Shown: in pieces, positions 19,919 to 26,779 of the stretch
Numbering within the stretch: the first letter of the stretch is position 1
Layout: every line of letters begins with the position of its first letter
Source of the DNA: the human T2T-CHM13v2.0 reference genome, Homo sapiens
Direction: 5' to 3' (one strand)
DNA: 64,000 nt
Assembly (NCBI RefSeq): GCF_009914755.1
Contig: NC_060933.1
Translations under genes and position numbers: made by a program
The notes under the pieces: model-generated
Told to the model about the DNA's origin: nothing
Databases searched by the model: none
The model's input: the letters and a program-made list of their open reading frames with translations, nothing else

Positions 19919-22286
19919 TAGCCACTGAGATAGCTGTTTCAGTTTGCTTTTCCTTAATAATACTCTCTACTCGTATTTACTTTGCAGCCCACATTGCTTT
20001 CTTGAGATATATGATCTGATATTATAATTATGCATTCATTTGTTTGTCTAGTTGTTTATTTTCTGTTTGCCCTCAATAGAACAGGTTTCTAGAGCACAAG
20101 GACCAGTCTTTCTGTTCCCTACTGCACCACAGGGCATAAAACAGTACCTGGCACATAGTAGGTGTTTATTAAACACAAGCCCCTTTTCTCTTGTACTTAT
20201 GAGACCACAATAGTTGGAAGCCAAATCCCTGTGTGCTGGCGCAGGGAATGCTACTATAGAGCATCCATAGGGAGGCTGGGGGTGGGGCAGGAGCATCTGT
20301 AGACCCATAGAGAGCTCTGTGGACCCCGTTTTCTCATCCTTAGCAAAAAAGCCCTCAGAGGTCCCGCAGCCGACCTGTGCCTGGTCCCGGTGATGTGGGT
20401 GGTTCCCTCCACGGTATTTTATTGCTTACTTTTATTTCTCGCACAGAGATCACTCTGTGAATTACTTCGTTTTTTAAAAAAGATCGATTCAAATGTAATT
20501 TTTTCATTGTATTAAAATCACAATTTCGAAAGTCCAGTGCTTCTTGAGACTTTAAATTTGGCTGATAAACCGTGTTCTACCCGTTACAGGCAAATGTTAA
20601 TAACTTCCTTTATGAGGCCTGTGGATAATTCTTGGTCCATCACAGACTTAGTTTATTTAATAGCTTTAAACATTTTAATTGCACTTCCAAAATTAATATG
20701 TTTAAATTTATGTTTTAGTACTTCAGCATTCCACCTTTAGCAAAACCTTCTGAGTATAAACTAATTTTTCAAAATCTAATAATTTAAACATATGACTGTG
20801 GGGGGAGGTCTCTTAAATGTTCCAAAACTACACACACACTACAGTTTTCCACATAAAATCACTAACTCATTCAATTCCTCGATTTCACATTTTCAATTGG
20901 ATTATCAGGGTGTCACTGACATAGGCCAAATTCTCCAATACTCAAAATACCAAATTGACATAGATTGCTTTACGCTAAAATATTCATACTGTGAGGTTCA
21001 GTTTCTTGATTCTGTCTAGACTTTAGAAGAAACACACACCTACTCAGGAGGCCGTCTCCACTCAGGGAGCCCAGGTGACTAAGGGCCCGGGAGTCTGGGC
21101 AGCCTGCCGTGGGCTTTTAGCTACCAGCTGTGTGAGTCTTGCCCGTGGCACTTTGGTGAGAAGAGAAGGTGCCAGGAGGGAGGCCACATCTCTGGGTTCC
21201 GTTTCCACACATCCCTGGGAGCCCGCCCTTCCCAGCCACGTTCTGCTCACACTGGGTCTGGCACGGTCAAAGTCGAGGTCTTTAAATGGCTTTGTGTTTT
21301 CAGGCCTGTATGACGCCAGGGACGTGGAGCTGGTCTGCCATGGATGAGCCTCACAGGGCTTTTTCCACTTGGGGTCATGAATCTAACCCTTTTGACACCT
21401 GCGCAGGGGCCATTGGTGGTGCAACTGGGGCCACAGCCCGCCACCTCTCCCTAATGGGACCGAACCCGAGGCCAGCGTTTGCTTCAGGATTTGCTTTTCT
21501 CTAAAAGGCTTTGAAGCTGGGGCCAATCCACCAGTTCCCCTGTTCAGGGGGCAGGTGTCCAATGGCCCCCCACGGGCAATTTCATGCCACCCATCCCCAC
21601 CCCTTCCCCCGCCCCCACCTGAAGCTGCTGCCGTCCCATTCACAGTCCTGCGTCTTTGCAGCACCGGCTTGGACGGGAGCCTGATCCAGTGCCAGCGTGC
21701 CACCCCTTGGCAAGGCTCCTGGTCCGCTCACACCACTTTTCGCCAGCCAATGTCCTCTAGGGTTGCAACCAACTCCCTGCATGCTGGCCCAGGGAGGTTC
21801 CTGGTAATCATCCTGCTTCCCTCTCCCTCCCCTGGGAACCACTCAGACCGCAGTGGACGTTCCTAAACTTCTGTGGACTCACGGCAGATTCTCTGCAAGA
21901 GATTTCCTCAAGGGCTGGATTCCACAAGCCCTTCTGTCCTGCTGCGGGCCTCAGGCAGTGTTCCCGCCAAGCTTTCCCTAAAGACACAAACAGGCAGGCC
22001 CTTCCCACACGGGCCTCAGGGAGCCTTCTGCTGGGCAGAGCGTCCCTGCCAGGGGAAGCCAGGCTCGTTAAGTGGGAAGCCTGTGGGGCCTGCGGAAGAC
22101 AGCGGCCCTGAGGCTGTCTCCACCGCCAGTTGGTGCCACCAAGCCTTCGGGAGGGAGTGGCCATCCCCACTGGGGTTGGGAAATGGAGAGAGAGGTTACA
22201 GTGGGCGGCTGCAGCCCTGTAAGAACCACGGAGTTCCTTCAGTGGCAAAGACCAGAGCCCCAGGGCTGAGCCGAGCTGCCGTAGCC

Positions 22287-22353
22287 ATGGGACCTGCTCT
22301 CCTGGCCCTCTCCTTCCTGTGGACCATGGCCTTGACTGAGGACACCTGTCCAG
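22287..22353 (+). CDS. Ficolin-type signal-peptide exon MGPALLALSFLWTMALTEDTCP (relic exon 1; candidate alternative FCN2 first exon)
   Basis: gccATGG Kozak context, hydrophobic core, DTCP motif and CCAG|GTGAGT phase-1 donor, the same phase as FCN2 exon 1. Translation not demonstrated. Confidence 0.55.
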
Positions 22354-23462
22354 GTGAGTCAGCCCCCCGGTGGGTAGAACCTTAGAGCGATCACACTCCG
22401 GGAAGCTGACAGCGGCCACCTGCTGACCACTCACAGCACGCCAGGCCCGGTACTATGCCCTTTGTGAAGGTTCCTGCCTCATTTTCTCAACAGATTGTTT
22501 TAAGCCTCACCCTTTAAAGACCAGACAGAGGCTCAAAGAAACAGATGCAGCCTAACACGGGGGTTAGGAACAGGGCCCTGGGGCCAAACGGGCCAGGTCC
22601 CAAATTCAGAGCATGCAGCAGGGCCGTCTCCCCGGGGCCGAATCCTCCTCCGCAGAAGGGCCGTAATGAGAGTCCCACCAGCTGTGTGAGGAGGCAGCGG
22701 GCGTACAGGGCGCTGGCGGGCAGTGGGCCTAGTCAGAGCCTGTGCCACGATCAATGTCACTGGAAGACCACCCAGCTGGACGTGGCCAGCAAAGTCAAGT
22801 CCCAGCTCTGCAGGGAATTTGGCCTGGGATGTGCCTGGCACTGGGACAGGTGGTCCCCACTGTGTCCCTGATGTAGCCCAGTGAGGTCGATGTGGCACCT
22901 AGGCTCCAGATCTTCCCTGGGCTTCTGGGGGCACTCAGGTGATTCCCAGCAGCTCCACCTTCTGGGGGAGGCTCTGGCCCCCCTGCATTGCAGCCATGCT
23001 GGAGTACGTTGCTCTGAACTCAGAACCAGGGATGGCTTCCAAAAACCCTAGTAGGCGCCATGGTCTGAGCCTGCTCGTGGTGGACCAGGGGCCAGGGTAA
23101 TGGTGGGTCCCATGGAGAAAGGCCCCGAGTGGGGCTAGGAAGAAAACACACACTACAGAGGCCCTTTCACTGGTTATGTTATGGGTGAGTTAACTTTTTC
23201 CCCCAAACATGTCTTATTTTCTAGATTATCCTACATTATTAAGTATTCATTGTTTAATGAGAAAAATTAAGCAAATAAAAAAAGTGGTCTACACTTGTTC
23301 TGACCAGTGAGCCAGGGGTGAGGACAGATAAAAAAAAAATCCACCAAGCAGTGGCAGCTGCCATGTCTCTGGTGAGAGCACCGCTCTGTTCCATGGTCTC
23401 TTAGAGCACCCTTAGCAGGGCATATTGATTTCATAATCAACAAAATGAAAAATATTTTTTCA

Positions 23463-25918: not shown

Positions 25919-26164
25919 GTGATTCTGACACACCACAACAACTACCCCTTCTCCACCGAAGACCAAGACAACGACCGAGATGCTGAAAACTGTGCCGTGC
26001 ACTATCAGGGAGCCTGGTGGTATGCCAGCTGTCACCTGTCACACCTGAATGGTGTCTACCTCGGGGGGGCCCGTGACAGCTTTACAAACGGCATCAACTG
26101 GAAGTCGGGGAAAGGGAACAACTACAGCTACAAGGTGTCGGAGATGAAGGTGCGGCCCACCTAG
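25919..26164 (+). pseudogene. Ficolin last exon (fibrinogen-like domain C-terminus) with 2-nt deletion
   Basis: Polypyrimidine tract plus CAG acceptor; [17 protein letters not shown]...GAWWY..CH...[10 protein letters not shown]; 56/79 aa identical to FCN2 exon 8 by hand count; 246 nt vs 248 nt in FCN2. Confidence 0.9.
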
Positions 26165-26544
26165 CCCGGCGCTGAGGTCAGAGGTTCTCTCCACACACCC
26201 TGGCTGGAGGAGCGCATCCCTCAGCCCTCACCAAGAGGGCAATGTGGGGATCATGGCCCCCATCCTCATGGGAAGAGGGAGCTCCCACCAGTCCCTTATA
26301 GGCATGGCCCGCAGAGCTTTGCACCCAGTGCCAGCATCCAGCCCCCTGCCTCCCATCTGCAAGGCTAGGCGAAGCCCCAGCGTGCCTCCCTCACCGCAGC
26401 CATCAGTGCTTGCTTGCCTCACAGACAATGGTGGGATGCCATGGCCGTTTGCCCTGCCCTGACCAGTGACCACACCACTGTGCTGCTCATCCGTCCTTGC
26501 TTCCCTGTGATTTGGCCCTATGGGTGGATCAGATGCCCTAGGGC

Positions 26545-26779
26545 TGAGGGAGTTCCCCACTGGCTAAGACAAAGCAGGGCCACCGTGCCTGTTTGTGAAT
26601 AAAGTTTTATCGGCACAGCCATGCCCATGGCTTCCATATTGTCTCTGGTTGGTTTCTATCATCCCCGGAAGCTTCCAAGTGCCAGGCAGAATAGAGTAGT
26701 TGGGACGGAGACCGTATGACTCGCAACTCCTAAATTGTGTATTAATCAGTCCTTTACAGAGAGTGTTCGCCGACCTCTG
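26545..26779 (+). mobile_element. MER58-like hAT DNA transposon supplying AATAAA at 26598-26603
   Basis: Matches recalled MER58A consensus (aataaagttttat; cctttacagagagtgttcgccgacctctg). Confidence 0.7.

What the first reader, a model, noticed from the sequence alone, without database searches (positions are those of the whole stretch)
20450..26620. A relic third ficolin gene in tandem upstream of FCN2
Seen: four collinear blocks match FCN2. These are ~2 kb of upstream sequence (20470-20960 vs 36180-37030 without the Alu), the core promoter and exon 1 (agccctgtaaga..gcaaagaccagag vs agccctataaga..gcaaagaccagag), distal intron 1, and the last exon (56/79 aa identical, with DQDND, GAWWY and Cys-His kept). 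Over the last ~25 codons I count 7 synonymous and 2 non-synonymous differences from FCN2. Established: the human ficolins are FCN1 and FCN2 on 9q34 and FCN3 on chromosome 1. Inference: a distinct paralogue stayed under purifying selection long after duplication and was then lost, so it may be intact in other primates or mammals.
Basis: partly seen in the sequence, partly recalled or inferred. Interest (0 to 1): 0.8.

Follow-up and report, generated by a model that had tools for sequence, protein, structure and literature searches.

The report
Remnant of a lost third ficolin gene
Just upstream of human FCN2 lie the first and last exons of a third ficolin gene that macaques, a titi monkey and a tarsier still appear to keep whole, so humans have one fewer of these innate immune lectins than the monkeys used as models.

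Summary
Five collinear blocks (not four) at window 20597-26950 match FCN2: an upstream block, promoter plus exon 1, distal intron 1, the last exon and the 3' flank.

It is the gutted remnant of a third 9q34 ficolin gene. Exons 2-7 are absent. The last exon carries a 2-nt frameshift at its 5' end. Seven human-lineage replacements include three ligand-site residues.

Macaca "ficolin-2-like" (337 aa, collagen plus fibrinogen domains) is 85% identical in the last exon, against 72% for FCN2 and 67% for FCN1. The relic's 22-residue signal-peptide exon is identical to colobine models. Plecturocebus and tarsier also have complete models; no ape model was found.

dN/dS of 0.27-0.34 at dS about 0.67 argues against a copy that was dead on arrival.

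Exon 1 is not fully dead. Its donor is the end of the RefSeq alternative FCN2 first exon, and its ATG opens a 302-aa frame through FCN2 exons 2-8.

I found no published description.

The parts
20597..20988 (+). Upstream homology block, about 1.3-1.65 kb 5' of relic exon 1. Its counterpart lies about 1.5-1.9 kb 5' of FCN2 exon 1.
   Evidence: blastn 20597-20788 ~ 36594-36778 (68.9%) and 20843-20988 ~ 36841-36999 (67.3%). Tile scan z 7-22. No counterpart was found at FCN1.
21834..22353 (+). RefSeq alternative first exon of FCN2, which contains relic exon 1. ATGs lie at 22183 (28-codon upstream ORF), 22287 and 22326.
   Evidence: The exon coordinates come from the annotation supplied with the finding. 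It ends at GTCCAG|GTGAGT, which is the relic donor. The ATG at 22287 (context GCCATGG) opens a 302-aa frame through FCN2 exons 2-8.
22085..22244 (+). Relic core promoter, with a TATA-like box at 22213-22224 that reads TGTAAGA where FCN2 has TATAAGA.
   Evidence: Alignment to FCN2 38318-38476; motif positions. Monkey models that read through this stretch have ...PIR..., which is consistent with TATAAGA (inference).
22245..22353 (+). Relic exon 1: 5' leader plus the signal-peptide coding part 22287-22353 (MGPALLALSFLWTMALTEDTCP, phase-1 donor).
   Evidence: Aligned to FCN2 exon 1. 22/22 residues are identical to Rhinopithecus, Colobus and Piliocolobus models, and 21/22 to Macaca.
23337..23465 (+). 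Intron-1 remnant, left of the insertion. It is FCN1-intron-1-like.
   Evidence: 88% identity to FCN1 intron 1 (continued coordinates 74825-74699, opposite strand).
23466..25365 (+). Young interspersed-repeat insertion with an A15 tail. It is not part of the ancestral gene.
   Evidence: It interrupts sequence that is contiguous in FCN1 intron 1. At least 39 other genomic copies match at 97-98% over the full length. Pfam finds nothing in its ORFs. Naming it LINE-1 is recollection only.
25366..25866 (+). Intron-1 remnant, right of the insertion. It runs up to the 5' breakpoint of the internal deletion.
   Evidence: 94.2% identity to FCN1 intron 1 over 501 nt: 98% in the first 250 nt and about 90% in the rest. 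Identity to FCN2 intron 1 is 77-81%. Homology stops about 60 nt before the equivalent of exon 2.
25867..25918 (+). About 50 nt of the last intron, with polypyrimidine tract and CAG acceptor. This is the 3' side of the deletion junction.
   Evidence: Aligns to the 3' ends of FCN1's last intron and FCN2 intron 7. Acceptor context TATTTTTCCCTCTGAGCAG|GTGATT.
25919..26164 (+). Relic last exon (C-terminal third of the fibrinogen-like domain) with stop codon at 26162-26164. A 2-nt deletion lies near 25924/25925.
   Evidence: Pfam Fibrinogen_C, E 8e-25, profile positions 143-220 of 221. Identity is 72% to FCN2, 67% to FCN1 and 85% to Macaca ficolin-2-like. Frameshift.
26797..26950 (+). 3'-flank homology block shared with the FCN2 3' flank.
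   Evidence: blastn 71.5%, E 3e-10. Tile scan z 13-20.

Best explanation
Window 20597-26950 holds the unprocessed remnant of a third 9q34 ficolin gene. It lay head-to-tail upstream of FCN2.

The gene is old. It is as far from FCN2 as FCN2 is from FCN1, and it encoded a working secreted lectin for most of its history. Its orthologue is the gene annotated 'ficolin-2-like' in macaques. Complete models also exist in a New World monkey and a tarsier.

On the lineage to humans the gene was disabled in three ways:
- An internal deletion runs from about 60 nt before exon 2 to about 50 nt before the last exon. It removed every collagen-like exon and most fibrinogen-domain exons.
- A 2-nt deletion shifts the frame at the start of the last exon.
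- The last exon then drifted and lost ligand-site residues.

Later events are a young retroelement insertion in the intron remnant and sequence exchange with FCN1 intron 1.

Shown here: the anatomy, the lesions, the paralogue distances, and the closer match to the monkey proteins.

Inferred: synteny of the monkey gene, loss after the ape/Old World monkey split, and the order of the lesions.

The promoter and signal-peptide exon survive with an intact ATG, frame and splice donor. They are annotated as an alternative 5' exon that can splice to FCN2 exon 2. That would give a ficolin-2 with the dead gene's signal peptide. The frame is shown here, but expression is not.
For: Anatomy:
- Five collinear blocks match FCN2.
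- tblastn with the FCN2 protein hits only exon 1 (22266-22352) and the last exon (25925-26161, E 7.5e-33) in the relic. Nothing between 22353 and 25924 matches residues 34-234, even at E <= 10.

Junction and frameshift. Relic exon 1 spliced to the relic's last exon at its acceptor gives only 44 codons.

Orthology:
- Of 123 hits at E <= 1e-10, the best mammalian matches are Rhinopithecus P0003 and Macaca P0004 (85%) and Chlorocebus P0005 (84%). Old World monkey FCN2 scores 76%, Pan FCN2 72% and human FCN1 66%.
- The relic exon-1 peptide is 22/22 identical to colobine models.
- Residues shared with the monkey gene are Y9-P10, D21-A22, H28 (1.2% of 169 ficolins), L40 and T81.
- Trees place the relic with the Old World monkey third gene, inside a starred six-row clade that also holds a Nycticebus model (98/91) and with the monkey models alone at 92/82 and 81/86.
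- The AU test rejects relic + FCN1 (p 0.001). On exon 1 plus the last exon it rejects relic + anthropoid FCN2 (p 0.014).
- The full-length tree separates the Old World monkey third-gene clade (100/98) from the anthropoid FCN2 clade (96/88).

Past selection:
- relic-FCN2: dN 0.177, dS 0.669, omega 0.27.
- relic-FCN1: omega 0.34.
- FCN2-FCN1: omega 0.24.

Decay:
- There are 7 human-only and 2 monkey-only replacements.
- K14E, A56T and Y67N fall on the residues equivalent to FIBCD1 Lys390 (L-ficolin Lys221), Ala432 and Trp443. These build the S3 and S1 ligand sites (for numbering; PMC3908420, passages read).

Exon-1 survival: plus the supplied RefSeq table. Models of the same chimeric kind exist in M. 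nemestrina, Piliocolobus and Aotus.
Against: - No non-human DNA could be inspected, so synteny, intactness and timing rest on predicted protein models.
- Several monkey models (Rhinopithecus, Colobus, Nasalis, Chlorocebus) are aberrant in the collagen-like or central part. 'Intact in Old World monkeys' therefore rests mainly on Macaca.
- On the last exon alone the AU test does not reject relic + FCN2 (p 0.115). With tarsier FCN2 added to the constraint, the combined test gives p 0.066.
- The excess of human-lineage replacements is not significant (7 against 2, binomial p 0.18). Four of 7 against 0 of 2 fall in conserved columns, Fisher p 0.44.
- Absence of an ape orthologue is weak evidence. 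The Macaca cluster P0004 stands for 36 sequences that I could not list.
- No expression data were seen for the alternative FCN2 exon. It contains a 28-codon upstream ORF, and its TATA-like box is altered.
Confidence: 0.85

Rival explanations
1. Dead on arrival: a partial, never-functional duplicate of FCN2 (or an FCN1/FCN2 mosaic) that was copied without its middle exons.
For: Only the two end exons are present. The intron remnant is 94% identical to FCN1, so some of the locus is a mosaic.
Against: - dS to FCN2 is 0.67 with omega 0.27.
- Complete proteins with the same exon 1 and last exon exist in Macaca, Plecturocebus and Carlito.
- The junction keeps intron sequence on both sides, as an internal deletion would.
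Confidence: 0.04
2. It is not a separate gene remnant in any functional sense. The region is simply the distal promoter and alternative first exon of FCN2, and the 'last exon' is inert debris.
For: RefSeq puts 21834-22353 inside FCN2 (supplied table). The donor, ATG and frame are intact and give a 302-aa ORF. The exon-1 peptide is unchanged from the colobine models (22/22), whereas the last exon has 7 human-only changes.
Against: This describes present use, not origin. The collinear last exon, 3' flank and monkey orthologues show that a whole gene once stood here. Zero changes in 22 codons is not significantly fewer than the last-exon rate predicts (about 2 expected, my arithmetic). No expression evidence was seen.
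Confidence: 0.1
3. Chance or repeat-driven similarity.
For: The flanks hold Alus, and a 1.9-kb repeat lies inside the region.
Against: E-values reach 2e-57. The blocks are collinear and lie outside the repeats. Pfam Fibrinogen_C scores E 8e-25.
Confidence: 0.01

Closest known systems
Human FCN2 (ficolin-2 / L-ficolin), 12-19 kb downstream on the same strand
   Same: It shares the upstream block, promoter motifs, exon-1 layout with a phase-1 donor, last exon (56/79 residues) and 3' flank. The nearest solved structures are ficolin-2 chains (E 1.8e-35).
   Different: FCN2 is whole (8 exons, 313 aa). Its signal peptide is of another type (MELDR...LQAADTCP) and it ends in ...RPA. The relic's last exon is no closer to FCN2 than to FCN1 at synonymous sites.
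Macaca mulatta 'ficolin-2-like' (P0004), with related models in Rhinopithecus, Colobus, Nasalis, Chlorocebus, Plecturocebus and Carlito
   Same: The signal-peptide exon is the same (21-22 of 22 residues). The last exon is 84-85% identical with shared rare residues, and both end in ...RPT.
   Different: The Macaca model has all exons, with Collagen and Fibrinogen_C domains. The human copy lacks exons 2-7, has a frameshift, and has lost ligand-site residues.
Human FCN1 (ficolin-1 / M-ficolin), about 35-49 kb downstream on the opposite strand
   Same: The last exon is 67% identical. The intron-1 remnant is 94% identical, and 98% over 250 nt.
   Different: It has a different signal-peptide type and no shared flanks. 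The AU test rejects relic + FCN1 (p 0.001).
Other lineage-specific losses of lectin-pathway recognition genes: rodent Fcn3 pseudogene (PMC3240626, abstract and passages read) and human MBL1P1 (recalled, no call)
   Same: Each is a soluble complement-activating lectin that is intact in some mammals and a pseudogene in others.
   Different: Here the promoter and first exon of the dead gene remain spliceable to the neighbouring live paralogue.

Membership tests
Ficolin (secreted collagen-like plus fibrinogen-like lectin) | C-terminal fibrinogen-like domain (Pfam PF00147) | tested here: inconclusive
   Only profile positions 143-220 of 221 are present (E 8e-25). The first two thirds of the domain are missing.
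Ficolin (secreted collagen-like plus fibrinogen-like lectin) | Collagen-like Gly-X-Y region | tested here: not met
   tblastn with the FCN2 protein finds no match to residues 34-234 between 22353 and 25924. The Macaca orthologue has it (PF01391).
Ficolin (secreted collagen-like plus fibrinogen-like lectin) | Signal-peptide exon ending in the conserved DTCP segment with a phase-1 donor | tested here: met
   MGPALLALSFLWTMALTEDTCP, followed by G|GTGAGT.
Ficolin (secreted collagen-like plus fibrinogen-like lectin) | Calcium-site Asp-x-Asp and the Cys-His of the acetyl pocket | tested here: met
   D17, D19 and C38-H39 align with FIBCD1 Asp393, Asp395 and Cys414-His415 (residue roles from PMC3908420).
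Ficolin (secreted collagen-like plus fibrinogen-like lectin) | S1 pocket Ala and Tyr/Trp, and the S3 Lys | tested here: not met
   T56 stands for Ala432, N67 for Trp443/Tyr and E14 for Lys390 (L-ficolin Lys221). Each consensus residue is present in 90-95% of 169 ficolins.
Ficolin (secreted collagen-like plus fibrinogen-like lectin) | One open reading frame across all exons | tested here: not met
   Exon 1 spliced to the last exon gives 44 codons, out of frame.
Unprocessed pseudogene left by lineage-specific gene loss | Keeps promoter, intron sequence and splice sites (not a retrocopy) | tested here: met
Unprocessed pseudogene left by lineage-specific gene loss | Disabling lesions | tested here: met
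   Internal deletion of exons 2-7 and a 2-nt frameshift.
Unprocessed pseudogene left by lineage-specific gene loss | Evidence of past purifying selection | tested here: met
   Omega is 0.27-0.34 at dS about 0.67.
Unprocessed pseudogene left by lineage-specific gene loss | Intact orthologue at the syntenic position in related species | tested here: inconclusive
   Complete models exist in Macaca, Plecturocebus and Carlito. Position is only implied: M. nemestrina, Piliocolobus and Aotus models join the third gene's exon 1 to the FCN2 body, and contig lengths are equal. No primate DNA was available.

The most novel reading that the evidence does not exclude
The relic descends from the ancestral mammalian 'alpha-type' serum ficolin. 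Its signal-peptide type and C-terminal Thr recur in loris, mouse lemur, colugo, bat, whale, dog and pig proteins. High-scoring FCN2-type signal peptides were found only in haplorhines. On this reading apes lost the older gene and kept FCN2. The dead gene's promoter and signal-peptide exon are retained because they still drive an alternative ficolin-2 isoform.
Probability: 0.3. Interest if true: 0.65.

Novelty: new member of a known kind. Interest (0 to 1): 0.5.

Why it matters
- Ficolins start the lectin pathway of complement. The standard account gives humans three of them (PMC3240626, abstract).
- If macaques carry a fourth working ficolin whose human counterpart is a gutted relic, macaque and human lectin-pathway repertoires differ. 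That bears on complement, infection and vaccine studies in macaques.
- It also bears on what antibodies to ficolin-2 detect in monkey serum.
- The relic explains where the distal FCN2 first exon comes from.
- The dead gene still exchanges sequence with FCN1 (98% over 250 nt).
- It adds a dated example to the pattern of lineage-specific loss of soluble pattern-recognition lectins.

Tried and rejected
- blastn alone missed the promoter/exon-1 block. Smith-Waterman with shuffles was needed.
- The AU test on the last exon alone did not reject relic + FCN2 (p 0.115).
- The relative-rate test (7 against 2, p 0.18) and the conserved-column test (Fisher p 0.44) were not significant.
- The full-length protein tree is dominated by within-order clustering, probably concerted evolution. 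It does not resolve which non-primate ficolins are orthologous to the relic lineage.
- I tried to date the deletion from the FCN1-like intron tract. Identity is heterogeneous (98%, 90% and 88% strata), so it gives no clean bound.
- Pfam found nothing in the ORFs of the 1.9-kb insertion, so its family is not named from a tool.
- Literature searches found no description of a third 9q34 ficolin or its human remnant:
  - 'ficolin, pseudogene, FCN2': 32 papers hold all three terms, 20 were listed, and only PMC3240626 was opened; there 'pseudogene' refers to the rodent FCN3 orthologue. Whether the other papers use it the same way was not checked.
  - 'ficolin-2-like': 12 papers, none on primates.
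  - 'ficolin, unitary pseudogene': 0 papers.
  - 'ficolin, gene loss, primates, tandem duplication': none of the 15 listed papers holds 'ficolin'.
  - 'FCN2, Old World monkeys, ficolin': 1 unrelated paper.
- PMC3240626 (passages read) sequenced only FCN1-3 in primates.
- GENCODE and pseudogene databases could not be checked.
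Full report
**Observation**

A self-comparison of the window shows collinear similarity between the region upstream of FCN2 and FCN2 itself.

blastn gives these blocks:
- 20597-20788 ~ 36594-36778 (68.9%, E 1e-14).
- 20843-20988 ~ 36841-36999 (67.3%).
- 25705-25865 ~ 39859-40020 (77.2%, E 3e-29).
- 25904-26167 ~ 44824-45089 (78.2%, E 2e-57).
- 26797-26950 ~ 45542-45695 (71.5%, E 3e-10).

The promoter/exon-1 block was too gapped for blastn. Three results establish it:
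- A local alignment scores 40, against 18.2 +/- 2.3 for 300 shuffles with a maximum of 29.
- A tile scan against shuffles recovers 22085-22161 ~ 38318-38397 and 22245-22358 ~ 38477-38597. Every block lies on one diagonal series.

The translated last exon (25919-26164) matches Pfam Fibrinogen_C at E 8e-25.

**Anatomy**

tblastn with the FCN2 protein hits the relic only at exon 1 (22266-22352) and the last exon (25925-26161). Nothing between them matches residues 34-234.

The intron-1 remnant follows FCN1 intron 1 up to about 25866. That is about 60 nt before the equivalent of exon 2. The sequence then continues with about 50 nt of last-intron 3' end, an intact polypyrimidine tract and a CAG acceptor. 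One internal deletion therefore removed exons 2-7.

The last exon has a 2-nt deletion in its second to fourth codons. The conserved frame is now phase 0 behind a phase-1 acceptor. Relic exon 1 spliced to the relic's last exon gives 44 codons.

The TATA-like box reads TGTAAGA where FCN2 has TATAAGA.

A 1.9-kb element with an A15 tail (23466-25365) splits sequence that is contiguous in FCN1 intron 1. It has at least 39 other copies in the genome at 97-98% identity, so the insertion is young. Pfam did not name it.

**Where it belongs**

In the window's own genome the last-exon peptide matches as follows:
- FCN2: 72%.
- FCN1: 67%.
- Two other fibrinogen-domain loci: 51% each.
- A chromosome-1 locus: 44%. 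By position this is FCN3, a name I recall rather than tested.

At synonymous sites the three 9q34 last exons are equidistant. dS is 0.67 for relic-FCN2, 0.66 for relic-FCN1 and 0.68 for FCN2-FCN1. dN/dS is 0.27, 0.34 and 0.24 respectively.

Three-point arithmetic on those values gives branch omega of about 0.37 for the relic, 0.17 for FCN2 and 0.32 for FCN1. This is my calculation. The relic lineage was under purifying selection for most of its existence, and it is not a recent copy of FCN2.

**Orthologues**

A search of public proteins with the 81-residue peptide gave 123 hits at E <= 1e-10. The best mammalian matches were:
- Rhinopithecus P0003 and Macaca mulatta 'ficolin-2-like' P0004: 85%.
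- Chlorocebus P0005: 84%.
- FCN2 of the same monkeys: 76%.
- Pan FCN2: 72%.
- Human FCN1: 66%.

P0004 is 337 aa with Collagen and Fibrinogen_C domains.

Its N-terminus contains ...MGPALLALSFLWTTALTEDTCP. The relic's exon 1 encodes MGPALLALSFLWTMALTEDTCP. That is 22/22 identical to Rhinopithecus, Colobus and Piliocolobus models.

A second search with P0004 added two models:
- Plecturocebus P0122 (302 aa), with a relic-type exon 1 and a last exon distinct from its FCN2.
- A Nasalis model.

Tarsier has three proteins on contigs of the same length: FCN2, 'ficolin-2-like' P0079 with a relic-type exon 1, and FCN1.

No ape protein other than FCN2 exceeded 80% identity to P0004. I could not list the 36 members of the P0004 cluster, so this absence is weak evidence.

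**Trees**

- Last exon, 60 rows: the smallest starred clade holding the relic (98/91) contains the four Old World monkey models and a Nycticebus model.
- Smaller primate set: relic plus Old World monkey third gene, 92/82. The AU test rejects relic + FCN1 (p 0.001) but not relic + anthropoid FCN2 (p 0.115).
- Exon 1 plus last exon: relic + anthropoid FCN2 is rejected (lnL difference 42, p 0.014). With tarsier FCN2 added to the constraint, p is 0.066.
- Full-length proteins: the Old World monkey third-gene clade (100/98) is separate from the anthropoid FCN2 clade (96/88). Both sit in a weak haplorhine group (84/82) apart from FCN1. Elsewhere paralogues cluster by order, which looks like concerted evolution.

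**Decay on the human lineage**

Against three Old World monkey models and four outgroup models:
- 7 replacements are human-only: Y5H, K14E, Q20R, N42H, H52R, A56T, Y67N.
- 2 are monkey-only.
- 1 differs in both.
- 2 are ambiguous.

The excess is not significant (p 0.18). Four of the seven fall in the 45 of 79 columns that are at least 90% conserved among 169 ficolins.

An ungapped alignment to the FIBCD1 last exon fixes the numbering: relic position + 376 = FIBCD1 residue. On that numbering:
- E14 replaces the Lys equivalent to FIBCD1 Lys390 and L-ficolin Lys221 (S3 site).
- T56 replaces Ala432 at the base of the acetyl pocket.
- N67 replaces Trp443, which is Tyr in ficolins and forms the pocket wall.

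The residue roles come from PMC3908420 (passages read). The calcium Asp-x-Asp and the Cys-His remain.

**What is still alive**

The annotation supplied with the finding lists FCN2 transcripts that begin with exon 21834-22353. That exon ends exactly at the relic's exon-1 donor.

The exon holds three ATGs:
- 22183, which opens a 28-codon upstream ORF.
- 22287, in context GCCATGG. It opens a 302-aa frame when spliced to FCN2 exons 2-8.
- 22326.

Predicted proteins of the same chimeric design exist in M. nemestrina, Piliocolobus and Aotus. This also implies that the third gene's exon 1 lies upstream of FCN2 on the same strand in those species. I saw no expression data.

**Exchange with FCN1**

Relic 25366-25866 is 94.2% identical to FCN1 intron 1, against 77-81% to FCN2 intron 1. 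Identity comes in strata:
- 98% over the first 250 nt next to the insertion.
- About 90% over the next 251 nt.
- 88% left of the insertion.

The split of 5 against 24 mismatches between the two halves is unlikely by chance (binomial about 5e-4, my arithmetic). Repeated gene conversion with the inverted FCN1 gene is the simplest reading.

**Timing (inference)**

- The gene is older than the haplorhine radiation if the tarsier and titi models are true orthologues.
- Flank identities of 67-72% and dS of 0.67 suggest an origin much earlier than primates.
- Loss after the ape/Old World monkey split follows by parsimony from the complete Macaca model.
- Seven replacements in 79 codons fit drift over most of that interval, with a wide error.

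**Novelty**

Five literature searches and two look-ups in the primate ficolin paper found no description of this gene or its human remnant. The macaque gene exists only as an automatic annotation. GENCODE could not be checked.

This is a new example of a known kind of event: lineage-specific loss of a tandem paralogue. Its added interest is that its 5' exon has been taken over by the neighbouring gene.

Noticed in passing
window 25366-25866 and 23337-23465, against FCN1 intron 1 (continued coordinates 74202-74825, L009/L010): The dead gene's intron remnant matches FCN1 intron 1 in strata: 98% (250 nt), about 90% (251 nt) and 88% (127 nt). This looks like repeated gene conversion between a pseudogene and a live gene about 49 kb away in inverted orientation.
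   Followed up: partly
window 23466-25365: A 1.9-kb insertion with an A15 tail. At least 39 other genomic copies match at 97-98% identity, so it is young. Pfam finds nothing in its ORFs. Calling it the 3' end of a LINE-1 is recollection only.
   Followed up: partly
proteins P0003, P0095, P0126, P0005: The colobine and Chlorocebus models of the third gene have aberrant or skipped collagen-like and central parts. Either they are mis-predicted or the gene is decaying independently in some Old World monkeys.
   Followed up: no
proteins P0160 and P0010 (Nycticebus): One model has a relic-type signal peptide with an FCN1-like last exon, and the other has the reverse. This suggests exchange between paralogues, or annotation across an inversion.
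   Followed up: no
window 40167-40678 and 42653-43836, against FCN1 (continued coordinates 74169-73639 and 71077-69899): The central parts of FCN2 and FCN1 are 87-89% identical, while their ends are 70-79% identical. Concerted evolution is confined to the middle exons.
   Followed up: partly
window 44850-44852: FCN2 in this assembly encodes Met at residue 236. I recall that this is the known Thr236Met polymorphism; it was not checked.
   Followed up: no
window 23300-23328 and 25817-25845: A 29-nt direct repeat (86% identical) of an intron-1 motif lies on both sides of the insertion. It is unexplained.
   Followed up: no
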